In this document: one piece after another, positions 3,806 through 50,289 of the stretch
Layout: every line of letters starts with the position of its first letter
Numbering within the stretch: position 1 is the stretch's first letter
From: a virus
Reading direction: 5' to 3' (one strand)
DNA: 64,000 nucleotides
IMG/VR virus record: IMGVR_UViG_3300047409_000726
Coordinates: 1-64,000 of that record
Translations under genes and position numbers: made by a program
Notes under the pieces: model-generated
Databases searched by the model: none
The model's input: the letters and a program-made list of their open reading frames with translations, nothing else
What the model was told of the DNA's origin: nothing

Positions 3806-5875
3806 TCACGGCATCCACTGGATCTTCGACGTGTCGATCTCGCACCAGTGGCTCTCTCGCTCCTCAGCTCCGTAGGTCACGATGAGGTTCTTGCCGTATA
3901 AAACGGCGCCGGCTGCGTACTCGACGCCGTGATGGTGGAACGTGAACGCGCGTGACACCCTCGTCGGGAGCATCGTCTCGCCGTCGAGCTCGATGAACCG
4001 GTGCAGGTAGACGTTGTCGTTGTCCCGGTGAGCGACTTCATGGATCGACATGATCCAGGTTCCGTCCGGCATCAGGACAGGAGCCGTACCGCCCCTGTAA
4101 CGCGCCATCCTGAACGGCATCGTCTCTTTGATCTTTACCTTGCACCGCCCCGTCTCACCGTCCGTCACGATCACCGTGAAAGGTTCGTAACCGTAGATGA
4201 GATAGAGCTCCCCTTTCAAAGACCACGGAAGCCAATTCTTCTCGTACTCTTGCGTGCCTTCGTATTCGATCTCTTCGGCAAACTCGCCCGAAAGATCGTC
4301 ATGCAATCTCCCGATGACGACTCGGGACTTGTCGTCGCCGCTCGGGGTTTGACACGTCGTCGCCGTGAACCAGACTTTACCCGCGTGCACGTGCCAACGC
4401 TGATCTTCTAGACCCCAGATGCGCCCCTTGGGCCAACCCGCCGGGCAGCGTGCGGTCGAAAGGCGCCACGGGCCTTCAAGACCTCCTTCCGGCGTCCATG
4501 GCGCCCACACGTTCTCGGTCCGAATAATTTGGTCCTTGTGCCGAGCAACGAACCAGCGGCCACGTTCGTGGTTGTAATTGACGAGCCGAACGTTCACGAA
4601 GAGCTCGCCCTCGAATCGAACGATGGTCGGCGAAGACGTGAGGTACTCGGCAAGCTCACTCGTTGCGACGCCTGGCACATCCCCGTTCGTGTCGAACGTT
4701 CGCATCGAAACCGGCACGTCGAACCGGCCGCGCCGCACGACGGCGTCGTACTCTTGCGGCAAGTAATGGAGAAGGTTCCGAACAGAGTTCTCGTAACTCG
4801 CCCAAGCTAGCCCGGGAGTTCGAAGCACTGTTTCGCACGCCTCGTGCCCTTCGTCTTTTCGTCCGAGGTAGTAGGCCGTGACGCTGACCTCTTCAAGAGC
4901 TTGAGCCCGAACGTTCTGATCGACGAAGAGATCCTCACCCGTTGTCTCGCCAAATGGCTCGAGAGCCGTTTTCGCAAAACCGTACGCGGCGCGGTTTTTA
5001 CCTATCCCTCGCAAGTGCTTGGCGACCTCAACGAGCGGCTCCCCCCGTCGCCCGCTTTTCTCGGCAGCGTCGATGAGGCGCATGAGTCCCTCTTCGGTCT
5101 TGCCGACCCCCATGAGAGTTTTACCGAGCATGAGCTCTGCGTACCATCGCTCGCCTTCCCAGCCGCCTGCGGCCTGGCGCATGTCGAAGTACTTGACGGC
5201 CATGTAGTAGTAGGTTTGCGCGAGGTAGTACATCGCCCGAACGTTCTTCGGATCCTCCTCGAGCCGTCGGCGAAGCAGGCGCGCGTCGCGATCGTACTTG
5301 TCGCCCTTCGAGCCGCCGTCGTCACGATCATCGATCCAGAGCGAAAAGAGCTCGGACGCGGGCGCACGATCCGGGTTCGGAGCCCAGTACTCGTGTGTCG
5401 GCTCGCACGAGACCCAGTCAAAATCCATGCGACCAAGCCTCGTGTTCGGGTAGGCGAGCGAGTCCTGCTTTTGGATGAGCCGGTAGTGTGGGTCCCGGAG
5501 CATCGATTTTTCGAACGCCTTCTCGGCGACGAGCACCATGTCGGCGTCGAGGAAAAGCAAATAGGTCTTTTCGAGCTCCCACTTCTTCTCGTTCACCCAA
5601 AGCTTCGCCGCCTTCGACGCCCACGTGCGAGCCGTACCGAAATCGAACTCTCCGTAGGGCCAGCGAAAGGTGTTGCGCGTCATTCCGCCTTCTATCCAGC
5701 AAGGCGTTTCGCGTACCTTGGCCGCTTCGGCGATGATCTTCACCGTGCCGTCTGTCCCCCCAGTGTCGGAAACAACGACGGCGTCGACGAAGGGCAGCGC
5801 CGACTCGAGGCAACGCCCTATAACCTTCCCTTCGTTCTTCACGATCATGTTCAAGACGATCTTCGGCACAGTCAT
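3806..5875 (-). CDS. GT2 glycosyltransferase with TPR repeats and C-terminal beta-propeller-like domain
   Basis: LNMIVKNE, DTG, FLDAD, HE motifs; TPR RAMYYLAQTY; C-terminal GLED and EKNW motifs. Confidence 0.85.
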   Translation of the reverse strand: MTVPKIVLNMIVKNEGKVIGRCLESALPFVDAVVVSDTGGTDGTVKIIAEAAKVRETPCWIEGGMTRNTFRWPYGEFDFGTARTWASKAAKLWVNEKKWELEKTYLLFLDADMVLVAEKAFEKSMLRDPHYRLIQKQDSLAYPNTRLGRMDFDWVSCEPTHEYWAPNPDRAPASELFSLWIDDRDDGGSKGDKYDRDARLLRRRLEEDPKNVRAMYYLAQTYYYMAVKYFDMRQAAGGWEGERWYAELMLGKTLMGVGKTEEGLMRLIDAAEKSGRRGEPLVEVAKHLRGIGKNRAAYGFAKTALEPFGETTGEDLFVDQNVRAQALEEVSVTAYYLGRKDEGHEACETVLRTPGLAWASYENSVRNLLHYLPQEYDAVVRRGRFDVPVSMRTFDTNGDVPGVATSELAEYLTSSPTIVRFEGELFVNVRLVNYNHERGRWFVARHKDQIIRTENVWAPWTPEGGLEGPWRLSTARCPAGWPKGRIWGLEDQRWHVHAGKVWFTATTCQTPSGDDKSRVVIGRLHDDLSGEFAEEIEYEGTQEYEKNWLPWSLKGELYLIYGYEPFTVIVTDGETGRCKVKIKETMPFRMARYRGGTAPVLMPDGTWIMSIHEVAHRDNDNVYLHRFIELDGETMLPTRVSRAFTFHHHGVEYAAGAVLYGKNLIVTYGAEERESHWCEIDTSKIQWMP

Positions 5876-26603: not shown

Positions 26604-28377
26604 TCCCATCGACCTCTCCAACATCTTCGCTGCCGTTGCCGAAGCAACCAACGGCGCGCGGCGAGGTACGGCTCTCGGTAAGATTCGAGAAGCTGAAGGC
26701 GTAAGACACACGCCCGAGCTCGATAGGATCATCATGATCCCACGGCGTGTGCCCCTCACGCCCGACGAGGAAGCCGAACAGATCGATCTGCTCACGAATC
26801 ATCTCCGCACGCCGGGCGGGACGATGCGGCTCCGCCCGGTGCAGTCCCAAGCTCTCTACGAGATGCACGACTACGGTGGCCTCTTCGGGCCCATCCGAGT
26901 CTCCGGCGGCAAGACGCTCATCTCCCTCCTCGCGCCGCTCGTGCTCGAGGCGCAGCGGCCGATGCTCATCGTCCCCGCTGCCTTGATCGAAAAGACACGC
27001 ACCGAAGCCAGCAAGCTTGCTCAGCACTGGAAGCTCCCGCCGTTCCTTCACATCGTGAGCTACCAAGCGCTTGGCCGTGTCTCTGGTGCGGAGACGCTCG
27101 AGAAGGCAAACCCTGACCTCATCATCTGCGACGAGGCGCACAAGCTCAAGAACAAGCGCGCTGCCGTCACGAAGCGTGTCGCCAGGTATATGCACGACCA
27201 CCCCGAGACGCGCATGGTCATATTGACCGGCACGATCTCGAAGCGTTCGCTTCATGACTTCTCGCACCTTTTGCTCTGGTCTTTGAAGCTCCGAACACCA
27301 CTTCCGCGGCACTGGACCGAGCTCGAGGCGTGGGCGCTTGCGCTCGACGAGCGACCGAATTCAGTTGTGCCGCCGCTCTACCCGGGGGCGATTTTGAAGC
27401 TTGCGACCGAGGAAGACACTGGTGGCGCGACAGAGCGGGCGCGCAAAGCAGTGCGACGTCGGATCAATGGCACGCCCGGTGTCGTGACGGCTTCCGGTCC
27501 GGGTTGTGACGTGAGTCTTCGGGTGCAAGGGCACATCGTCGAGACGTTGGAAGTGACCGAGGAAGCGTTTGACCGACTTCGTTCGAAATGGGAAACGCCC
27601 GATGGTTGGCCGCTCTCTGACGGGTTTGCGATTTGGCGACACGCACGCGAGCTCGCTTTAGGGTTTTATTATCGATGGGAAGTTCGACCGCCCGACGAAT
27701 GGCTCGAGGCGCGGAAAGCCTGGTCGGCGTTTTGTCGGAAAGTTCTTGGAAGTAATCAACGCCGGCTCGATTCCGAGATGCAGGTTGCGCTCGCGTGCAA
27801 GGATCATCCTGAATGGTACGGTGACCAAGAGTACAAGGCGTGGGTCGCGATTCGTGACACGTTCAAACCGAAGACCGTTGCGGTGCCGTTCGACGACTCG
27901 GTTCTGGAGTACTGCCAAGAGTGGTCCAAGCACGGCGGACTCATCTGGTGCGAGCACATTGATTTTGCGAACCGGCTCTCGTCCATGACGGGCATTCCGT
28001 ACTTCGCTGGTGAAGGTCTCGATGCGCACGGAAATTCGATCGAGACCTACGACGGTACGACGGCGATTCTTTCGATCGAGGCGAATCGAGAGGGTCGGAA
28101 CCTTCAACGGTTTTCGAGAAATCTCGTGAGTTCGGTACCGCAGCAGGGCGACCGAATGCAGCAGCTCCTCGCGCGTACGCATCGTGACGGGCAAGAAGCC
28201 GATGAAGTGATCTGCGACATCGTAGTCTCGTGCGCCGAGCACGTTGAGGCGATGCACATCATGCAGAGCGACGCGCGCTACCAAGAGGACATCACCGGAG
28301 ATCATCAGAAACTTTTGCTCGCGGACATCGTCGTGCCGAACACGATGCACTTGAAAGGAGCGGTTTGGAACAGATGA
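26596..28377 (+). CDS. SF2 (SNF2-like) helicase
   Basis: SGGKT, CDEAH, LTGT, EGRNLQ, QLLARTHR.GQ. Confidence 0.85.
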   Translation: MPDPIDLSNIFAAVAEATNGARRGTALGKIREAEGVRHTPELDRIIMIPRRVPLTPDEEAEQIDLLTNHLRTPGGTMRLRPVQSQALYEMHDYGGLFGPIRVSGGKTLISLLAPLVLEAQRPMLIVPAALIEKTRTEASKLAQHWKLPPFLHIVSYQALGRVSGAETLEKANPDLIICDEAHKLKNKRAAVTKRVARYMHDHPETRMVILTGTISKRSLHDFSHLLLWSLKLRTPLPRHWTELEAWALALDERPNSVVPPLYPGAILKLATEEDTGGATERARKAVRRRINGTPGVVTASGPGCDVSLRVQGHIVETLEVTEEAFDRLRSKWETPDGWPLSDGFAIWRHARELALGFYYRWEVRPPDEWLEARKAWSAFCRKVLGSNQRRLDSEMQVALACKDHPEWYGDQEYKAWVAIRDTFKPKTVAVPFDDSVLEYCQEWSKHGGLIWCEHIDFANRLSSMTGIPYFAGEGLDAHGNSIETYDGTTAILSIEANREGRNLQRFSRNLVSSVPQQGDRMQQLLARTHRDGQEADEVICDIVVSCAEHVEAMHIMQSDARYQEDITGDHQKLLLADIVVPNTMHLKGAVWNR

Positions 28378-28392
28378 AGGAAAACTGATCGT

Positions 28393-28452
28393 GAGCTAGG
28401 CACGAACGGGGCGACACCTCTCAGGAGGCATCTGACGTTTCGTGCCTAGCTC
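28393..28452 (+). promoter_or_regulatory. Intergenic stem-loop with a 14-bp perfect stem
   Basis: GAGCTAGGCACGAA (28393-28406) pairs with TTCGTGCCTAGCTC (28439-28452); inner CCTC/GAGG hairpin. Confidence 0.6.
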
Positions 28453-28491
28453 GCGGGAATTTTTCCCGTCTACGAAAAGGAATATCAAAAC

Positions 28492-29253
28492 ATGCCCCCC
28501 ATCGATTGGTCCCAAATTGGAGCTGCGCCGATTTTCGAACGTGGAAACTACTTCAACCCAGGAAGGTACAAGCTCCGCTTGCTTCGGTGCCTGAGCAAGC
28601 AGACGCAAAAAGTTGGAGTGGCGTTCATCGCCGAATTCGAAGTCTTGGAGAGCGACAACCCCGCGCACCAGATCGGGAGCAAGGGGACGTACTTCGTCAA
28701 GATGGCTCAACAGCAGCAAGCGTTTTCCAACATCCTCGAGATGATGGCGGCGCTTCTCGGATTCGATATCACGAACAAAGAACACGTTACGCAAATCGAT
28801 CAGCAACTGAGGCCCCAGCTTGCGGGGCTCATGACGGCGCTCGAGACGCAGGGCACGGCCGTGCTCGGCGGACGCGAGACGATTTCCGTCGAGTGTCGGA
28901 TCACGCTGACCAAACAGCAGAGGGAGTTCACGCTTCACGTGTGGACGCCGTGGACACCTCCGCCAGGTTGGCAGCCTGTTCCGACGCCGGCACAGGCGCA
29001 GATGCCTCAGAGGTCAGCGGCGCAACCCGTCGCTCAGCCTCAGGGGTATCCGGCTGCGTACGCCCCACCGGCGTTTGCGCAGCCCGCGCTGGCGCAACAG
29101 GCGCCTCAGCAACCGCCGGGGTTCGCTCCGGCACCGATGCAGGCGCCTCAGCAACAGGCGTTTGCTCCGGCACCTCAGCAGATGCAAGCCCCCTACGGAC
29201 AACCCGCCATGCCCCCGGCTGGCGCGTTGCCTCCGTGGATGACTCCTCGGTGA
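28492..29253 (+). CDS. Putative ssDNA-binding protein with Pro/Gln/Ala tail
   Basis: PG.Y beta-rich N-terminal domain; sits between helicase and DNA polymerase. Confidence 0.5.
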   Translation: MPPIDWSQIGAAPIFERGNYFNPGRYKLRLLRCLSKQTQKVGVAFIAEFEVLESDNPAHQIGSKGTYFVKMAQQQQAFSNILEMMAALLGFDITNKEHVTQIDQQLRPQLAGLMTALETQGTAVLGGRETISVECRITLTKQQREFTLHVWTPWTPPPGWQPVPTPAQAQMPQRSAAQPVAQPQGYPAAYAPPAFAQPALAQQAPQQPPGFAPAPMQAPQQQAFAPAPQQMQAPYGQPAMPPAGALPPWMTPR

Positions 29254-38735: not shown

Positions 38736-39146
38736 GTGACCGGCTCCGGCGACTTCTCGATCGGCAGCAAAGTCTGGCCGGGCACCTCGAAGCTTCTCGA
38801 AGAGATGGGCGAGCTTCAACAGGTGCTCGGTAAGCTCATCGCCGTCGCGGGGAGCACCGAGCATTGGGACGGTGACCTCAGACCGAGGCTCATCGAAGAG
38901 ATCGGTGACGTCTCAGCAGCGCTTGGTTTTTTCATGGAGCAGAACTTCGTGGGCGATGAATCTTTGATCGCTAATAGAATCGTGGAGAAGCTTCGACTCT
39001 TTCGAAAGTGGCACACCGGGCAAGATCAACACATTCGATGCTCTGGGCGCAGTCCTATGGGAAATCGATGCGAAAAATTCAGCGGTCATCTTGGCTCGTG
39101 TCACGCGAATGACGGCGAGCACGTCGAAGATTGGATGAACACATGA
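38736..39146 (+). CDS. MazG-like NTP pyrophosphohydrolase
   Basis: KLLEEMGELQQ..K and LIEEIGDV. Confidence 0.75.
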   Translation: MTGSGDFSIGSKVWPGTSKLLEEMGELQQVLGKLIAVAGSTEHWDGDLRPRLIEEIGDVSAALGFFMEQNFVGDESLIANRIVEKLRLFRKWHTGQDQHIRCSGRSPMGNRCEKFSGHLGSCHANDGEHVEDWMNT

Positions 39147-39592
39147 GACCGACTTGGCCCGAAACTTGGATGTCGATCGCGCGTGTCATCGCCGAGCGAT
39201 CCTACGACCCTCGCCTCAAGGTCGGCGCGATCATCGTCACGAGCGACAACACACAGATGCTCTCCGGCGGCTACAACGGTAACTACGCCGGTGGCCCACA
39301 CGAGCACGAGTCGCCTGAGCCTGGGCAGAGTGGGTTTATCCACGCCGAGGTGAACGCGCTCGTGAAGCTCGACTTCAACAACCCGAAAGAGAAACACCTG
39401 TACCTCACGCATTCGCCGTGCAGAATGTGCGCAAAACTCATCATCAACGCCGGCATCAAGCGTGTGGTGTACGGCGAGGCGTACCGAGACCCGAGTGGTG
39501 TGAAGCTCTTGCAGGGGGTTGGCGTCGATACGTATTCGTTTGAAGATGCTGTTTGGGCTGCGAAGAATCCGGGTGCTGGGCCGTCTCGATGA
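39143..39592 (+). CDS. dCMP deaminase
   Basis: KVGAII, GYNG, HAEVNA, SPCRMC, GIKRVVY. Confidence 0.92.
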   Translation: MRPTWPETWMSIARVIAERSYDPRLKVGAIIVTSDNTQMLSGGYNGNYAGGPHEHESPEPGQSGFIHAEVNALVKLDFNNPKEKHLYLTHSPCRMCAKLIINAGIKRVVYGEAYRDPSGVKLLQGVGVDTYSFEDAVWAAKNPGAGPSR

Positions 39593-40120: not shown

Positions 40121-40348
40121 TCATGCCTCAGGTGCTCCGGGGATCTTCCGGTTCGTGATTATTTTGAGCGCGATCGAGAGCAGCGGGCCCTCGATGTGTT
40201 TCGGTACCAAGATGCCGAGTTCGCGCTGTGCCCGATCAAGCGCAGCGCCGAATGTTAGGTTGTTGTCGGCCGTGAGAATGTCGATGACCCTCTCGAGCAC
40301 CGGTGCGCAGTGTCGCGCGTCGCGTAGCGCTTCTTCGACGGCTGTCAC
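40121..40348 (-). CDS. Small hypothetical protein, last gene of the putative Cas7-like operon
   Basis: GTG at 40348 overlaps the upstream stop. Confidence 0.45.
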   Translation of the reverse strand: MTAVEEALRDARHCAPVLERVIDILTADNNLTFGAALDRAQRELGILVPKHIEGPLLSIALKIITNRKIPGAPEA

Positions 40349-40842
40349 TAGTCGTCCCCGTTGAACAACACGACCTGCGCAGCCTGCGCGCAGGCGTCCT
40401 GAAGCGATTCGCCTTGAAAGAACCCCTTCACTTCGTAGCCGTCGTTGGAGAGGCTTGCCTCGAACATCTTGATCTCTCGCTTGCCTTCGGCGTTGACGCC
40501 CATCTCGATGGATCGGACGCCGGCCTCGCGTGCACGGAGCCACCGGTCGAGCGCTTCGAAGATCCGCACAGCTCCCTCGCCCTCGGCTTGGCGTATCTCG
40601 GCTTCTCGTGACTCGACCTGCGCGCGTACGGGCACGATGGTGACCGTTTTCATACGGAAGATGAGCTTACACGCTAGGTCGAGGTAGGCGCTCTCAGGGT
40701 TCGCTCGAACGTATAGCTCGTCGATCTCGTTGATGGTGTCGCGGAGCGCTTCTGCGAGCTCGTGAATCACGTCCTCGGACGTCATGGGAGCGGGGCGAGG
40801 GGGCGAGGAGTGTTTCGAGCGGGTAAGCGGGGCGTCGTTCAT
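40348..40842 (-). CDS. Hypothetical protein immediately downstream of the pentamer array
   Basis: RBS AAAGGAA lies in the tail of array unit A; 164 aa. Confidence 0.55.
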   Translation of the reverse strand: MNDAPLTRSKHSSPPRPAPMTSEDVIHELAEALRDTINEIDELYVRANPESAYLDLACKLIFRMKTVTIVPVRAQVESREAEIRQAEGEGAVRIFEALDRWLRAREAGVRSIEMGVNAEGKREIKMFEASLSNDGYEVKGFFQGESLQDACAQAAQVVLFNGDD

Positions 40843-40871
40843 CTTGGGTTCCTTTGTGTGTAGAAACGGTC

Positions 40872-41049
40872 CTTTGGTTTGCTCGGCTGTGCGCAGCGAT
40901 GCGTAGCCCGGCGGCGCGCCGATTCGGGTGGCTTTGCTGAGCGCTGCTTTGTTGAGCGGTGCGTGGCGCTGCGGTGCCGAGACTTGCCGAGCATTGCTTT
41001 ACAACGCGACGTTGCGCCATGCTGAGCACCGTACCGCTCAGCGGAGTTT
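40872..41049 (-). repeat. 5-nt periodic tract A (34 pentamers), candidate guide RNA
   Basis: + strand 40880-41049: GC in register in 26/34 pentamers, G in 33/34; bounded by CTTTGGTTTGC. Confidence 0.9.
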
Positions 41050-41097
41050 GTTGGGTTTGAAAAAAAGCTGTTCGGCACGGGGTTCGTTGAAAGTGTC

Positions 41098-41210
41098 CTT
41101 TGGTTTGCTTGGCAGTGCGTCACGACGCGGGGCAGGGTCGCGCGACGATCCGCTTCCCGGTGCACTGATCTGCTTGACCGTGCTGGGCACAGCGCCGCAC
41201 TGCGATGAGG
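41098..41210 (-). repeat. 5-nt periodic tract B (21 pentamers), candidate guide RNA
   Basis: + strand 41106-41210: GC in register in 14/21; bounded by CTTTGGTTTGC. Confidence 0.85.
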
Positions 41211-41254
41211 GTTTTGAAAAAGTTGTTTGTGCGCGGGTTGTGCGAAAAGTGTGA

Positions 41255-41337
41255 CTTTGATTTGCTGGGCTGAGCACGACTGAGCTTCGCGTCGCGTCGC
41301 TGGGCCGGGTTTCGCGAGGCGCTGCGTCGCTGGGTTT
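41255..41337 (-). repeat. 5-nt periodic tract C (15 pentamers), candidate guide RNA
   Basis: + strand 41263-41337: GC in register in 12/15; bounded by CTTTGATTTGC; starts 5 nt after the Cas7-like stop. Confidence 0.85.
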
Positions 41338-41342
41338 CTTTT

Positions 41343-41987
41343 CTAGGCCACCTTCCGTTTCATCGCAGCCGTCCCGTCGACGCAGTCCCATGCGACGACG
41401 TGGAAGAGCCCAAACGGCCCGCGCTTCTCAGGGCGGAAGGCGCCGATACCTAGTTGTTCTCCGGCCTCGGTGAGGAGCTGTCTCACGAACGCCGGATCCA
41501 TGAGGTTCTCGTTGATGCGGATCGTGCACTTCAACGTCCAGCGTTCGATGCGTGGACGGTGAGCGAGCAGTGCGCCTTTCGTGCTTGGGTTGACGACCCG
41601 GCGACTGTCCACCTCGTAGGTCGTGATGCGCGTTTTCCGGTCTTCATTGTAGAGCGGTGCAAGCTCGTCGAGAACGAGCACCGCGGCCGGCACGCGATAC
41701 TTCATCGACTTGCGGGTGCCCTTCTCCTTGTGGTTGCCGCCGGCTTCGACGATCGCGCGTTGTACACCGGTGCCAGGGAACACGAGTGGGGAGTCGAGCT
41801 TCCCGTTCTCGCGGTAGCAGCTCTTCTCGGCGATCTCTCGCGGAGTGAGTTGCTTGACGGCTGTGATAGATGGCCGAGTGCCTGGGCCACTGCCGCCGGG
41901 TACGTTTTCGGCTGCTTCTGTTCCAAACGCCGCCATAAGTAGCGGCATCGTTCCTTCGATCCAAGTTTCTGTGTATTGAAAAGACAC
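41343..41987 (-). CDS. Solo Cas7/RAMP-like RNA-binding protein
   Basis: 214 aa. N-terminal strand I.G..PLL; P...V..AI.EA helix; RP.I..W strand; C-terminal glycine-rich loop L.EAG..LGIG.FRP.K.G.FG.F.V, typical of RAMP/Cas7 folds; RBS AAAGGAG before GTG. Confidence 0.72.
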   Translation of the reverse strand: MSFQYTETWIEGTMPLLMAAFGTEAAENVPGGSGPGTRPSITAVKQLTPREIAEKSCYRENGKLDSPLVFPGTGVQRAIVEAGGNHKEKGTRKSMKYRVPAAVLVLDELAPLYNEDRKTRITTYEVDSRRVVNPSTKGALLAHRPRIERWTLKCTIRINENLMDPAFVRQLLTEAGEQLGIGAFRPEKRGPFGLFHVVAWDCVDGTAAMKRKVA

Positions 41988-42014
41988 TGAGATTCTCCTT
42001 TGGTTGAAAATGAG

Positions 42015-42152
42015 CTTTGGTTTGCGCGGCTGAGCGTGGCGATGCGGTGCGCTGCGAGGCGTAGATCTGCTGAGGGCCGCTCTGTTGTGCGGGGGCGCGC
42101 TAGGCGGGGCGGCGATATGCTTTGCCGGGGCCTGCCCTGCGGCGCGGTGAAT
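42015..42152 (-). repeat. 5-nt periodic tract D (26 pentamers) in the leader of the Cas7-like gene, candidate guide RNA
   Basis: + strand 42023-42152: G in register in 26/26, GC in 19/26; bounded by CTTTGGTTTGC. Confidence 0.9.
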
Positions 42153-42698
42153 TTAGGTGAACGACCTTCCTCTCTCGCCGATGGCGTTCGCGAAGAGTGC
42201 AGCAACGACGCCGACGAACAGGCCGCCGATGTGGGCACCGACACTGACGTCGCCACCGTTGCCGGTTAGTGCCTGCCAAGTGCTGACAGCGCAAAAGGCG
42301 AAAGCGAATCCGATGAATCGGCGGTCGACCGCTACGGAGTACGTGACCAGGCCGCAGACAGCCCCGGAGGCGCCTACCATCGGGATTGAAGAGCCTGAAG
42401 CTACGATAATGTGGAGAGCGGCTCCGGCGACCGCTGCGAGGGCGTAGAGGCAGAGGAACCGAGCGCCCCCGATGACCCTCTCGACCAGGCTGCCGAAAAC
42501 GGCCAAAAAGGCCATGTTACAGCCCAGGTGAACGAGGGTCCTAGGGTCGTGCAGGAAGGAGTAGGTGAGGAGCGAGCCCAGGCCCGGATGGGCCGGAACT
42601 AGGCCGAATTTCTCGCAGACCGGCATCCCGCCACTCGAGAGCTCGAGGGCGTAAACGGCCGCGTTCAGCGTCACGAGAAGGAGGGTCACGAGGGGCAT
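42153..42698 (-). CDS. Rhomboid intramembrane serine protease
   Basis: FLH..HL..NM, GASGA (catalytic Ser), AHIGG (catalytic His), multiple TM helices. Confidence 0.9.
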   Translation of the reverse strand: MPLVTLLLVTLNAAVYALELSSGGMPVCEKFGLVPAHPGLGSLLTYSFLHDPRTLVHLGCNMAFLAVFGSLVERVIGGARFLCLYALAAVAGAALHIIVASGSSIPMVGASGAVCGLVTYSVAVDRRFIGFAFAFCAVSTWQALTGNGGDVSVGAHIGGLFVGVVAALFANAIGERGRSFT

Positions 42699-42722
42699 AT
42701 GGGGTAGACGGATACCATACGA

Positions 42723-44764: not shown

Positions 44765-44822
44765 CGCTCACCGCTTCATCCCCGGCGCGGCGCTCACCGC
44801 TTCATCCCCGGCGCGGCGCTCA
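44765..44822 (+). repeat. 26-bp tandem duplication within ORF 44682-44909
   Basis: CGCTCACCGCTTCATCCCCGGCGCGG twice, then CGCTCA. Confidence 0.9.
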
Positions 44823-48217: not shown

Positions 48218-49438
48218 TCAACTCCCGTGGATCTGTCCGTCGTCACCGACGTACAAGTCGAATGTTCCGTAGCTTTTAGCGGCTTCCTGCAATTCGTCGA
48301 GGCCGTCGTCGAAGAACCCGGCGCCGTGACCGTTGCGCGAGAGCCAGAAGTTGTGCCCAGCGCGCCCACTGTCGATGTTTTCCGCGGCGGCAAGTAAGTC
48401 CGCGTACCGATCCTGGAAGTCGGCGCAGTCAGCGATCATCTTGGCGCGCGTTTCGGGCGCGATGTCGCTGATCGAATAGTTATCGTCGAGCGGGTCGCCG
48501 CCATCGTCGATGGAGCTCCAGAGCGCAGCGTCGAAATACGCTTGCGTGAACGAGTCGAGACGCGGTGCTTGAACTTCCTTCGCCCGACCCCTCGCCGGGA
48601 CTCGTCCTCGTTTGTACGCGCTCCAACCTTGACCTCGAAGCGTGGCGTCGGGAGGGTACCATCCACCACGTTTGCCGCGCGCTAAATCTATTTCGGCTTG
48701 TTCTATGAGGGCGGCCGAGATGTGTCCGATGACACGGCCGTCGCCTGAGATCACTTCGAACGTGTTCGGCAGTCCGCGCGTTTCGCGAGCTTCGTGGTTT
48801 CCTGACTCGCTTACTAAGCCGCTAGCGAACGCTTCTGCTTCCGCGTAACCTAGCGCCGTGTAGATGCCGTTGTCCGGTCCGAAGTAGTCTTGCTTCGGTG
48901 AAGCGTTCTTGAAGAAACGATACCGAGTGACGCCGTCTCCTGGCGAGTACGTATAGATAGCGTAGCCTGGCGGCAGATCTGCGCGTAACTTGTCGAGACG
49001 TGTCTTGCCGCGGGCGTCGACGTGTTCCTCGACGACTTCTCCGACGCCGACGCGCGTGTCGACGTGGTCGTACTCCCCGTTCTCGACCGAGCTCCGGAAG
49101 CTCGCCTCGAGTTGCTTCGCCGCTTCGTGCCGCGTCGCGGGGTTGAACATCGTGCTCCAATTTTTCTCGGAGTCGAATTCTTTCGCGTACCGTTTTGCGC
49201 CCGCTTCGGTGAGATATTCGAATAGGCGCACAGCGAGCGCCGGGTCATAGGTTTTTTTGCGCCACTTGCGGAGCGCGTTCAGGAGCACGCTTCGCCCCTG
49301 CCCGCTCGGGCCGTCGGGAGATAGGTCGGACGTGTTCTCGATGTACATGACGAGCTCGGTTGCTGCTTGCTCATCCGTGGGCTCGCGGTGAGTCGGGCTT
49401 TTTCGTTTCGCTTTCGCTTTTGCTTTTGTGCGGGCCAT
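48218..49438 (-). CDS. Modular hypothetical protein
   Basis: Basic N-terminus; domains include AALWSS..PLD and AGHNFWLSRNGHGAGF. Confidence 0.6.
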   Translation of the reverse strand: MARTKAKAKAKRKSPTHREPTDEQAATELVMYIENTSDLSPDGPSGQGRSVLLNALRKWRKKTYDPALAVRLFEYLTEAGAKRYAKEFDSEKNWSTMFNPATRHEAAKQLEASFRSSVENGEYDHVDTRVGVGEVVEEHVDARGKTRLDKLRADLPPGYAIYTYSPGDGVTRYRFFKNASPKQDYFGPDNGIYTALGYAEAEAFASGLVSESGNHEARETRGLPNTFEVISGDGRVIGHISAALIEQAEIDLARGKRGGWYPPDATLRGQGWSAYKRGRVPARGRAKEVQAPRLDSFTQAYFDAALWSSIDDGGDPLDDNYSISDIAPETRAKMIADCADFQDRYADLLAAAENIDSGRAGHNFWLSRNGHGAGFFDDGLDELQEAAKSYGTFDLYVGDDGQIHGS

Positions 49439-50289
49439 TACTCGTCCTCTTCTTCCTCGAACTCTTCGTCGTCTTCCTCTTGGGATCGTTGAGCGACCTC
49501 TTCGATTTCGTCCGCGTCCGTCACTTCGTGAGCGTGAACCTCGTGAGAGATGACATGCGTGCCGCTCTTGAGCGTCGTCCAACCGATCGTGATCAGATCG
49601 GCTTCTGCGTGCTCTACGATCTTTTCGTAGTCGCGATCATCAAACGGAGTCCACGTCCCTCCGAATTCTTTTCGCCCGACAGCGCCCCCATCAGACCACG
49701 CCTCGTCCCATTCGATGCCGAGGTCTTCTGCGGCTTCTTTGAGATCGTCTTCTGTAAGTGTGACGAATACGCCGCGAGCGTTGTCGTCGGCCCACTCTAT
49801 GGCGATCTCTTCGGCGTCCTCGAAACTAGCGGCCCACACGTAGACTTTTTTGTCGGCGTAAGCTCCGAACTGGAATTGATACAGTGACATTCTGCTGTAT
49901 CGTTCGCCGTGGTCGCAATCTTCTGGGTTCGCGATCGGAACTTCCCTGTCGTCGGCGACTTGTCGCTTCGCGGTCACTCGTCCGGTTCTAGGCTCGTCTA
50001 ACTCATCGTCGTCGCCCCCCGTCGCCTTGTGCTCTCGCGCCTGCTCGATCAGGTCTCGCGCGATGTCCTTCGAGTCGAACCGCCGGTTGTTACCTGGCAC
50101 TCTCGACGAGCCCCAGTACCCGCGATGATCCTGATCGTAGTCGGACAAGCCCCAGTTCACCGTCCAGGTGCTGTCAGGCATGACCTGCAACCGAACGTCG
50201 ATCCCTTCGTCGGCGTCGTCCGGTTCGAGTGTTTCCTTGTTGATTCGCCGAAGCTCGGCCGACACGTCGTTGATACTCGGGAAACGCAT
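49438..50289 (-). CDS. Acidic modular hypothetical protein
   Basis: IDVRLQV..YDQDHRGYWG domain; acidic tail. Confidence 0.6.
   Translation of the reverse strand: MRFPSINDVSAELRRINKETLEPDDADEGIDVRLQVMPDSTWTVNWGLSDYDQDHRGYWGSSRVPGNNRRFDSKDIARDLIEQAREHKATGGDDDELDEPRTGRVTAKRQVADDREVPIANPEDCDHGERYSRMSLYQFQFGAYADKKVYVWAASFEDAEEIAIEWADDNARGVFVTLTEDDLKEAAEDLGIEWDEAWSDGGAVGRKEFGGTWTPFDDRDYEKIVEHAEADLITIGWTTLKSGTHVISHEVHAHEVTDADEIEEVAQRSQEEDDEEFEEEEDE

What the first reader, a model, noticed from the sequence alone, without database searches (positions are those of the whole stretch)
40872..42152. Candidate RNA-guided system: solo Cas7-like gene embedded in four 5-nt-periodic (GC every fifth base) guide-like tracts
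Seen directly: four non-coding tracts flank a 214-aa gene, one upstream (D, 26 pentamers) and three downstream (C 15, B 21, A 34). On the + strand each pentamer reads N-G-C-N-N (for example tgctc ggctg tgcgc agcga tgcgt...), with GC in register in 71 of 96 pentamers and no register slips within a tract. The variable bases differ between pentamers and between tracts, so this is a fixed scaffold carrying variable information rather than a microsatellite. Each tract ends (in gene sense) with GCAAAYCAAAG. Established knowledge: the C-terminal GIG.FRP..G.FG.F loop is the glycine-rich loop of RAMP/Cas7 proteins, which polymerise along guide RNA with a fixed footprint per subunit. Inference: the protein coats each tract at one subunit per pentamer, binds the constant bases and presents the variable ones to read a gapped target. 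No cas1, cas2, cas5, cas6 or CRISPR array is present. From memory (unverified), this resembles phage VIPR-type loci described with GGY/NN repeats; here the constant motif in gene sense is GCN, so it may be a distinct subtype.
Basis: partly seen in the sequence, partly recalled or inferred. Interest (0 to 1): 0.97.

Follow-up and report, generated by a model that had tools for sequence, protein, structure and literature searches.

The report
Phage VIPR guide-RNA system, variant repeats
A complete soil phage genome carries a VIPR system (described in 2026): a small Cas7-like protein with four guide RNAs built of 5-base repeats; this one is a natural variant with a relaxed repeat scaffold, and one guide spells the active site of a rival phage's rhomboid protease gene.

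Summary
Four non-coding tracts flank the 214-aa gene 41343..41987 (-). They keep G-C in one 5-nt register in 72 of 94 units, and they are the only such tracts in the 80,264-bp phage genome.

This is a VIPR locus (Vipr protein plus vrRNAs), as described in three 2026 bioRxiv preprints.
- The protein folds as a RAMP/Cas7 (Csm3, Z 11.3).
- It is homologous to the founding Vipr of phage SUSP1 (hhalign probability 96.9 %).
- 73 of 74 viral homologues have period-5 tracts next to the gene.

The repeat here reads N-G-C-N-N instead of G-G-Y-N-N. This fits the published alternative class YNNNG, so it is not a new subtype.
- Both residues that read the first G in the cryo-EM structures are Ala here (H17 is A19, D177 is A183).
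- Among 108 distinct proteins with called repeats, all 8 without Asp have a degenerate first position. This rests on only 1-2 independent lineages.

Read by the published rule (two bases read, one skipped), the first 14 units of the upstream guide match a related 109-kb phage's rhomboid gene 28/28, at PLVGASGAIFGLLA. They match a sibling phage 25/28 and the phage's own rhomboid 21/28.

Targets of the other three guides are unknown. Expression is untested.

The parts
42023..42147 (-). vrRNA D repeat tract (upstream of vipr): 25 pentamers N-G-C-N-N. The first 14 units from the RNA 5' end decode to the rhomboid motif PLVGASGAIFGLLA.
41988..42022 (-). Tail of vrRNA D (ACCAAAG, a possible AAAG/YTTT mini-hairpin, a short T run). 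It overlaps the ribosome-binding site AAAGGAG of vipr.
   Evidence: The structure is inferred only; no Rfam hit.
41343..41987 (-). vipr gene, 214 aa, GTG start. RAMP fold with thumb hairpin (about residues 125-147, invariant R144) and G-loop (residues 180-195). The residues at the G1-contact positions are A19 and A183.
41263..41332 (-). vrRNA C repeat tract, 14 pentamers (12 with G-C), ending in AGCAA and followed by the tail ATCAAAG...
41106..41205 (-). vrRNA B repeat tract, 20 pentamers (14 with G-C), ending in AGCAA and followed by the tail ACCAAAGG...
40880..41044 (-). vrRNA A repeat tract, 33 pentamers (26 with G-C), ending in AGCAA and followed by the tail ACCAAAGG. It is nearly identical in sibling phage L001. 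It may be composite, since AGCAA also occurs internally at units 10 and 22.
41045..41105 (-). Linker between tracts B and A (tail of B, T run, leader of A). It is homologous to the C-B linker at 41206-41262.
42153..42698 (-). The phage's own rhomboid protease gene (Pfam PF01694), ending 5 nt before tract D. Its catalytic segment at 42342-42384 matches guide D at only 21/28 positions; its Ser codon is TCC where the guide reads AG.
40348..40842 (-). Gene directly after the vrRNA array (164-aa ORF; homologues start at residue 20, giving 145 aa). It is conserved only in close relatives. Function unknown; it is not shown to be a vap accessory gene.

Best explanation
This is a phage-borne VIPR (Viral Interference Programmable Repeat) system.

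Parts: the 214-aa gene encodes a Vipr protein, a minimal RAMP. The four flanking tracts are vrRNA genes transcribed in the sense of the gene.

Mechanism, by homology with the characterised SUSP1 and P. fulva systems (inferred here):
- One Vipr protomer binds each pentamer of the RNA.
- The protomers form a helical filament that flips out and sequesters the constant G2 and C3, through the invariant thumb Arg144, Phe184 and Arg185.
- The two variable bases N4 and N5 of every unit are presented.
- These pair with double-stranded DNA in which every third base is skipped, forming a gapped R-loop that blocks transcription of the target.

The variant: the first scaffold base (G1) is not conserved here. 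The two residues that hydrogen-bond G1 in the solved complexes are both alanine, so the scaffold is reduced to a G-C anchor.

A target: at least one guide, the first 14 units of the upstream vrRNA D, is directed at the catalytic-serine segment of the rhomboid protease gene of related rival phages. The phage's own rhomboid copy differs at first and second codon positions, including a switch of serine codon family. It should therefore be bound less well.
For: Fold (shown): the AlphaFold2 model has pLDDT 81.6. The 24 best VIA-align rows are all CRISPR RAMP/Cas7-type chains, led by Csm3 9g9a_D (Z 11.3) and 6ae2_B (Z 11.2). All listed Foldseek rows are CRISPR effector-complex chains, from E 4e-7.

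Homology (shown): hhalign of the family alignment against SUSP1 Vipr (KT454805, 28474-29061) gives probability 96.9 %, E 1.5e-10, over 180 columns. The residue numbers quoted in the cryo-EM preprint fit that SUSP1 sequence, and R138, W178 and R179 align to R144, F184 and R185.

Association with repeats (shown): 73 of 74 IMG/VR homologues have period-5 tracts beside the gene; the exception is cut off at the gene's end. The consensus in gene sense is GGC or GGT followed by NN.

Protein-RNA correspondence (shown): with Asp at the D177 position, the median frequency of G at position 1 is 0.94 (139 loci). With Ala or Ser it is 0.06-0.31 (9 loci, including the window).

Location (shown): a complete phage genome with direct terminal repeats. 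No Cas1 and no CRISPR array.

Target (shown):
- Guide D read as codon positions 1-2 gives PLVGASGAIFGLLA.
- The only exact IMG/VR hit to 12 of these units lies in a rhomboid gene of a 109,321-bp complete phage.
- Fourteen consecutive units match 28/28, against a shuffled-guide maximum of 21.
- The sibling phage's rhomboid matches 25/28 and the phage's own 21/28.
- No self-target scores above the null.
- That phage shares about 28 kb of translated similarity with this one and has no vipr.

Turnover (shown): in other soil metagenomes the gene is kept while the tracts are replaced by other sequence, and one 5-nt unit is deleted in register.
Against: - No expression data. No RNA run holds the locus, so transcription, RNA ends and processing are inferred.
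- No sigma-70 promoter or canonical terminator was found.
- The tails have only a weak A/U mini-hairpin, not the pseudoknot of the SUSP1 clade.
- No accessory vap gene could be recognised.
- In SUSP1 an engineered D177A change abolished silencing (10.64898/2026.04.26.720927). Activity of a natural Ala variant is therefore an inference from its conservation together with matching repeats.
- Only 14 of the 25 units of guide D match. The other 11 units match at chance level (7/22), and their pattern has no hit.
- Guides A, B and C have no target in what I could search.
- The tracts are longer (14-33 units) than the published 9-16.
- The Asp/G1 correlation rests on only 1-2 phylogenetically independent contrasts.
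Confidence: 0.88

Rival explanations
1. It is a decayed or minimal CRISPR-Cas remnant: a stray Cas7 of a type III or IV system, perhaps used as an anti-CRISPR decoy. The tracts would then be unrelated GC-rich non-coding DNA.
For: The best structural matches are Cas7-type subunits (Csm3, Cmr4, Csf2, type VII Cas7). Phages are known to carry partial CRISPR systems (established knowledge).
Against: - No Cas1 and no repeat-spacer array.
- The family has 1,444 clusters at 50 % identity, no Pfam Cas family matches it, and it is homologous to SUSP1 Vipr.
- Period-5 tracts accompany the gene in 73 of 74 viral loci.
- The repeat consensus follows the residue at the RNA-contact position.
Confidence: 0.03
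2. It is a VIPR system that acts on RNA or recruits a nuclease to destroy the target, as proposed for types III and V. It would not act by simple transcriptional silencing.
For: The first preprint reports VIPR types with nuclease or helicase accessory genes. The genes next to this locus (the 145/164-aa protein and the rhomboid) have no assigned role.
Against: - No nuclease or helicase domain lies next to the locus.
- Both neighbouring genes are conserved only among close relatives.
- The characterised phage-borne systems silence without cleavage (10.64898/2026.04.26.720920).
Confidence: 0.07
3. The rhomboid match of guide D does not reflect targeting. The tract next to the rhomboid gene could be a decayed, reformatted copy of rhomboid sequence, or the match could follow from conservation of the GxSG motif.
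For: Only 14 of 25 units match. The motif is conserved across rhomboids. The tract lies right after the phage's own rhomboid gene.
Against: - Converting 3-nt codons into 5-nt units is not a decay path.
- The match is perfect at codon positions 1-2 for 14 codons. It is to a foreign copy (28/28) and a sibling copy (25/28), better than to the adjacent own copy (21/28).
- The 24-base pattern has one hit in all of IMG/VR.
- Wobble-skipping matches in coding regions are the published signature of natural VIPR targets.
Confidence: 0.15

Closest known systems
Type II VIPR of Escherichia phage SUSP1 (KT454805; vipr 28474-29061, vap1 28031-28471) and of the Pseudomonas fulva prophage
   Same: - Small Vipr RAMP protein, homologous by profile comparison (probability 96.9 %).
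- vrRNAs of tandem pentamers in gene sense, one upstream and three downstream.
- A constant 3' end on each vrRNA.
- Phage-borne, with no cas genes.
- Conserved contacts for G2 and Y3 (Arg thumb, aromatic residue and Arg in the G-loop).
- A guide whose N4N5 bases match a coding target with the wobble base skipped.
   Different: - The repeat is N-G-C-N-N, not G-G-Y-N-N.
- The G1-contact residues H17 and D177 are Ala here.
- There is no vap1 homologue.
- The downstream vrRNAs follow vipr directly.
- The tails are short and A/U-rich, not a hairpin-pseudoknot.
- The tracts have 14-33 units, against 9-16.
- Only about 21 % sequence identity.
- The GC content is about 60 % and the host is unknown.
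Published alternative vrRNA repeat classes (NNNGG, YNNNG, NNNNG) in the VIPR type classification (10.64898/2026.04.26.720920, methods)
   Same: N-G-C-N-N is a cyclic permutation of Y-N-N-N-G with Y = C. The window therefore fits an alternative class that is already listed.
   Different: I could not see the figure or the supplementary data, so I could not assign one of the seven types. In the text I could read, the link between this repeat class and the loss of the G-loop Asp is not stated.
Cas7 backbone subunits of class 1 CRISPR effectors (Csm3, Cmr4, type VII Cas7)
   Same: RRM core, thumb hairpin and glycine-rich loop (Z 11.3-8). They polymerise along a guide RNA with a fixed footprint and flipped bases (established knowledge).
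   Different: - The footprint is 5 nt with 2 read bases, not 6 nt with 5 read bases.
- The guide is encoded as a repeat scaffold, not as a spacer between repeats.
- There is no Cas5, Cas6, Cas10, Cas1 or Cas2.
- No Pfam Cas family matches.

Membership tests
VIPR (Vipr protein + vrRNA) | Vipr protein with a RAMP fold: RRM core, thumb and glycine-rich loop | tested here: met
   Model pLDDT 81.6. The top 24 VIA rows are CRISPR RAMP chains, Z up to 11.3. Foldseek E 4e-7. The G-loop motif is invariant in the family.
VIPR (Vipr protein + vrRNA) | Sequence homology to a characterised Vipr (SUSP1) | tested here: met
   hhalign probability 96.9 %, E 1.5e-10, 180 columns. R138, W178 and R179 align to R144, F184 and R185.
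VIPR (Vipr protein + vrRNA) | Flanking non-coding tracts of tandem pentamers with a constant trinucleotide (GGY or a related consensus) and variable NN, in gene sense | tested here: met
   Four tracts, 72 of 94 units with G-C in register, unique in the genome. The consensus N-G-C-N-N equals the published YNNNG class. Homologues show GGY/NN in gene sense.
VIPR (Vipr protein + vrRNA) | Canonical G1 recognition (His in beta-strand 1 and Asp in the G-loop) with G at repeat position 1 | tested here: not met
   A19 and A183 replace H17 and D177. G at position 1 is 10-14 %. This marks a variant. It does not define the family, because NNNGG, YNNNG and NNNNG repeats are included by the authors.
VIPR (Vipr protein + vrRNA) | Invariable 3' tail after the repeat tract | tested here: inconclusive
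   A conserved AGCAA unit followed by A(C/T)CAAAG ends all four tracts and those of relatives. The fold is weak and no covariation could be tested. No Rfam match.
VIPR (Vipr protein + vrRNA) | Target recognition by N4N5 with one skipped target base per unit | tested here: met
   By sequence only. Guide D units 1-14 match a phage rhomboid gene 28/28 under the 1-nt skip rule (null maximum 21), with the skip at the wobble base. Position 1 does not track the skipped base (4/14). Binding itself is not tested.
VIPR (Vipr protein + vrRNA) | vrRNAs are transcribed and form an RNP with Vipr | not testable with these tools
   No RNA run holds the locus.
VIPR (Vipr protein + vrRNA) | Accessory vap gene in the operon (typical, differs by type) | tested here: inconclusive
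   The neighbouring 145/164-aa protein has no Pfam match, no similarity to SUSP1 Vap1 and only 6 homologues; its model has pLDDT 52. The neighbours are not conserved across the family.
VIPR (Vipr protein + vrRNA) | Mainly viral or proviral location, with no CRISPR array or cas genes | tested here: met
   The record is a complete 80,264-bp virus genome with direct terminal repeats and a replication module with phage families. No Cas1 or array.
Class 1 CRISPR-Cas (Cas7 as part of an effector complex) | CRISPR repeat-spacer array and further cas genes (cas5, cas6, a large subunit, cas1/cas2) | tested here: not met
   No Cas1 in the genome. No repeat-spacer array in the window. No Pfam Cas family on the protein.

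The most novel reading that the evidence does not exclude
This would be a natural 'two-base-anchor' VIPR subclass. Loss of the G-loop Asp (and here also of the beta-strand His) would free repeat position 1, leaving only G2-C3 as scaffold. That would give a scaffold orthogonal to GGY systems. It would also show that the engineered D177A loss of function in SUSP1 can be compensated in nature.

In addition, the phage would use one guide to silence the conserved catalytic segment of rivals' rhomboid genes. It would keep its own copy out of reach by changes at first and second codon positions, including an AGY to TCN serine codon-family switch. That is the kind of escape a wobble-skipping code still allows.
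Probability: 0.5. Interest if true: 0.6.

Novelty: new member of a known kind. Interest (0 to 1): 0.45.

Why it matters
VIPR is a very recent discovery, and only a few systems (SUSP1, P. fulva and some type III/V loci) have been studied.

This locus is a clean, complete example from an uncultivated soil phage. It is of the relaxed-scaffold class and comes with three testable points:
- Which protein residues set scaffold specificity. Asp in the G-loop goes with G at position 1, which would be useful for designing orthogonal Vipr/vrRNA pairs.
- A concrete natural target, a rival phage's rhomboid catalytic segment, with an in-genome negative control in the phage's own copy.
- Evidence that guide cassettes turn over between near-identical phages while the protein stays.

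It does not change the picture of what VIPR is.

Tried and rejected
Contexts of the closest metagenomic homologues came from the search for related loci instead.
- tblastn of the protein against GenBank phages: no match. SUSP1 is too distant for BLAST and was reached by accession and profile comparison.
- phmmer against PDB sequences: no match. The Vipr structures are apparently not in that copy.
- Pfam: nothing. PHROGs: only phrog_4652, of unknown function.
- Rfam at E <= 1: nothing in 40300-42700, so no hammerhead between the tracts.
- Sigma-70 promoter scan: 0 sites. Terminator scan: at the level of the shuffles.
- Exact IMG/VR scans found nothing for 11-unit parts of guides A, B and C, or for the 3' half of D plus the junction.
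- Guide B halves with up to 3 mismatches in the records behind L162, L001 and L066: nothing.
- All four guides against the whole 109-kb target phage: only D scores above the null.
- Degenerate-peptide scan of the phage's own six-frame translation: only guide D, on the own rhomboid, stands out.
- The upstream guides of relatives L001, L082 and L084 line up in frame with rhomboid segments, but only at 18-20 of 32-36 positions. I do not count this as significant.
- Position 1 as a third read base: rejected (4/14 matches to the skipped base).
- The 145/164-aa neighbour as vap: the model has pLDDT 52, too poor for a fold search.
- No RNA holder was listed among public runs.
- Supplementary files of the first preprint are not held, so no VIPR type (I-VII) could be assigned.
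- The phylogenetically corrected test of the Asp/G1 link has too few independent pairs (1-2) to reach significance.
Full report
OBSERVATION

The region holds a 214-aa ORF on the minus strand (41343..41987, GTG start behind an AAAGGAG ribosome-binding site) and four non-coding tracts.
- Identity at lag 5 is 0.46-0.51 in the tracts and 0.24 in the gene.
- A caller for in-register x-G-C-n-n units finds exactly four runs with 8 or more conforming units in the whole genome: 26/33, 14/20, 12/14 and 20/27 units. Markov shuffles give none.
- Each tract keeps one register. Non-conforming units are interspersed singly or in pairs.
- All tracts end, in gene sense, with an (A/C)GCAA unit followed by A(C/T)CAAAG.
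- Tandem Repeats Finder does not call the tracts as a period-5 array. This fits a constant scaffold that carries variable bases.

WHAT THE LITERATURE SAYS

Three preprints describe VIPR systems: 10.64898/2026.04.26.720920, 10.64898/2026.04.26.720927 and 10.64898/2026.10.15.759431. Their main points:
- A small Vipr RAMP protein works with vrRNAs of 9-16 YNNGG (that is GGY/NN) pentamers, followed by a 3' tail.
- The systems are mostly phage-borne. In SUSP1 one vrRNA lies upstream and three lie downstream.
- One protomer binds each repeat. GGY is flipped out, and N4N5 pair with dsDNA in which every third base is skipped, usually the codon wobble base.
- The result is transcriptional silencing of competing elements.
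- There are seven types. The alternative repeats NNNGG, YNNNG and NNNNG are listed in the methods.

THE PROTEIN

Pfam finds nothing, and PHROGs gives only an unknown family. The family is large: 1,444 clusters at 50 % identity with E <= 1e-3.

An AlphaFold2 model built on 27 homologues has pLDDT 81.6.
- The 24 best VIA-align matches are all CRISPR RAMP chains: Csm3 9g9a_D Z 11.3, Cmr-beta 6s6b_I Z 11.3, Csm3 6ae2_B Z 11.2.
- Foldseek agrees (6ifn_F, E 4e-7).

I fetched phage SUSP1 by accession (KT454805). Its layout is as published: two minus-strand genes between two long intergenic regions that hold GGT/GGC pentamer arrays.

Profile comparison of the window's family with SUSP1 Vipr gives probability 96.9 %, E 1.5e-10, over 180 columns. 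The residue numbers in the cryo-EM preprint fit this SUSP1 sequence. They map as follows:
- R138 to R144 (160 of 161 sequences have Arg).
- W178 to F184 (always aromatic).
- R179 to R185.
- H17 to A19.
- D177 to A183.

GENE-REPEAT ASSOCIATION

Of 74 homologous loci in IMG/VR, 73 have period-5 tracts next to the gene; the exception is cut off at the gene's end. In gene sense their consensus is GGC or GGT followed by NN. This identifies the family as VIPR and gives the strand of the RNAs.

THE VARIANT

In the window, and in its 99 %-identical sibling L001, the units read N-G-C-N-N. Position 1 is C 40 %, A 27 %, T 19 % and G 14 %. As a cyclic permutation this is the published YNNNG class.

I compared 161 loci (viral, genomic and metagenomic).
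- With Asp at the D177 position, G at position 1 has a median frequency of 0.94 (139 loci).
- With Ala or Ser it is 0.06-0.31 (9 loci).
- After removing duplicates, 8 of 8 non-Asp proteins and 1 of 100 Asp proteins fall below 0.5 (Mann-Whitney p 3e-6, uncorrected for relatedness).
- On a FastTree the non-Asp proteins sit in two to six places. Only 1-2 phylogenetically independent contrasts exist. The link is therefore mechanistically sensible but not statistically proven as co-evolution.
- The HS group keeps the His but still lacks G1, which points to the Asp as the key contact.

The preprint reports that D177A abolishes silencing in SUSP1. Here the Ala is natural and goes with repeats that no longer need G1.

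STRAND

G-C is its own complement, so the scaffold alone does not tell the strand. Three things favour the gene-sense strand:
- The homologues' GGY lies in gene sense.
- The conserved end motif lies 3' in that sense, like the published tail.
- Only in that sense do G2 and a pyrimidine at position 3 face the conserved contact residues while the two target-matching bases sit at N4N5.

On the other strand the unit would be G-C-n-N-N. That puts C at the G2 position and a mostly purine base at position 3.

TARGETS

I re-tested this from the sequence.
- Taking N4N5 of each unit, reverse-complemented and read as codon positions 1-2, guide D gives R[DE][CW][IM]VL[RS]YL[DE]PLVGA[RS]GA[IM][FL]GLLA. This contains the rhomboid GxSG catalytic motif.
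- A 12-unit exact pattern has a single hit in all of IMG/VR. It lies inside a rhomboid gene of a complete 109,321-bp phage.
- Fourteen consecutive units, the RNA 5' half, match 28/28. The other 11 units match 7/22, which is chance level. Shuffled guides reach at most 21/28 on that genome.
- The sibling phage L001's rhomboid matches 25/28.
- The phage's own rhomboid, which ends 5 nt before tract D, matches 21/28. Its catalytic Ser is TCC where the guide reads AG, and the neighbouring residues differ (M/L, V/I, C/F, V/L, T/A). That is 75 %, below the 80 % cut-off the authors use for natural targets.
- No guide has a self-target above the null.
- Position 1 does not follow the skipped base (4/14). 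The code is therefore NN plus one skip here too, and even units that lack G-C carry matching N4N5.
- The target phage is a distant relative (about 28 kb of translated similarity) and has no vipr. This fits inter-phage competition.

Guides A, B and C, and the 3' half of D, have no target in what I could search.

TURNOVER

L001 has a 99 %-identical protein. It keeps tract A almost unchanged but has different upstream and first-downstream guides.

In contigs from other soil metagenomes:
- The gene is kept (about 95 % identity).
- Tracts B and C are replaced by 149 other bases, and tract D by 172.
- One contig lacks exactly one 5-nt unit.

Guides thus behave as exchangeable cassettes.

CONTEXT

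The record is a complete virus genome with direct terminal repeats. It has a phage replication module at 20-31 kb, no tRNA, no Cas1 and no CRISPR array.

The rhomboid gene and the 145/164-aa gene flank the locus only in close relatives. The latter has no similarity to SUSP1 Vap1 and gave no usable model. No vap is identified.

VERDICT

This is a genuine VIPR locus: a new member of a kind described in 2026, belonging to the relaxed-scaffold repeat class that is already listed.

Shown here: the fold, the homology, the gene-repeat association, the residue-repeat correspondence, and one sequence-level target.

Inferred: transcription, RNP formation, DNA binding and silencing.

Noticed in passing
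L163-L168 (IMGVR_UViG_3300032893_000012, 109,321 bp); rhomboid match at about 90,065-90,106: The phage whose rhomboid gene is matched by guide D is a distant relative of the window's phage: blastn aligns about 17 kb at 66-78 % identity, and tblastx covers about 28 kb. It carries no vipr gene.
   Followed up: partly
window 41048-41344 and 41987-42210, seen in soil-metagenome contigs of runs X2 and X3: In related populations the vipr gene and its neighbours are kept, but tracts B and C are replaced by 149 other bases and tract D by 172. One contig lacks exactly 5 nt (one unit) at 41287.
   Followed up: partly
L001:3886-3975, L082:1728-1807, L084:3221-3265: The upstream vrRNAs of three relatives also sit right after a rhomboid gene. 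When decoded they line up in frame with rhomboid segments (for example LRPRLLGF of the target phage), but only at 18-20 of 32-36 positions, which is not significant on its own.
   Followed up: partly
window 40880-41044: Tract A (33 units) contains the usual terminal unit AGCAA three times (units 10, 22 and 33). After unit 22 comes a stretch that resembles a decayed tail. It may be two or three fused vrRNAs.
   Followed up: no
window 44765-44816: A perfect tandem duplication of a 26-nt unit.
   Followed up: no
window 39131-39592 (+): The ORF carries HAE...PCxxC zinc-binding motifs, which by my own knowledge are typical of dCMP/cytidine deaminases. No search was run on it.
   Followed up: no
window 48951-49014: A weak period-5 signal (score 0.265) inside ORF 48218..49582. 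It is not in a G-C register and the unit caller does not call it, so it is probably chance.
   Followed up: partly
L066 (IMGVR_UViG_3300032069_000195), tracts at 3835, 4554 and 5329: A distant Vipr (28 % identity) with Ala at the Asp position also has N-G-C-N-N repeats that end in AGCA(A/C). Its branch is very long, so its placement on the tree is unsure.
   Followed up: partly
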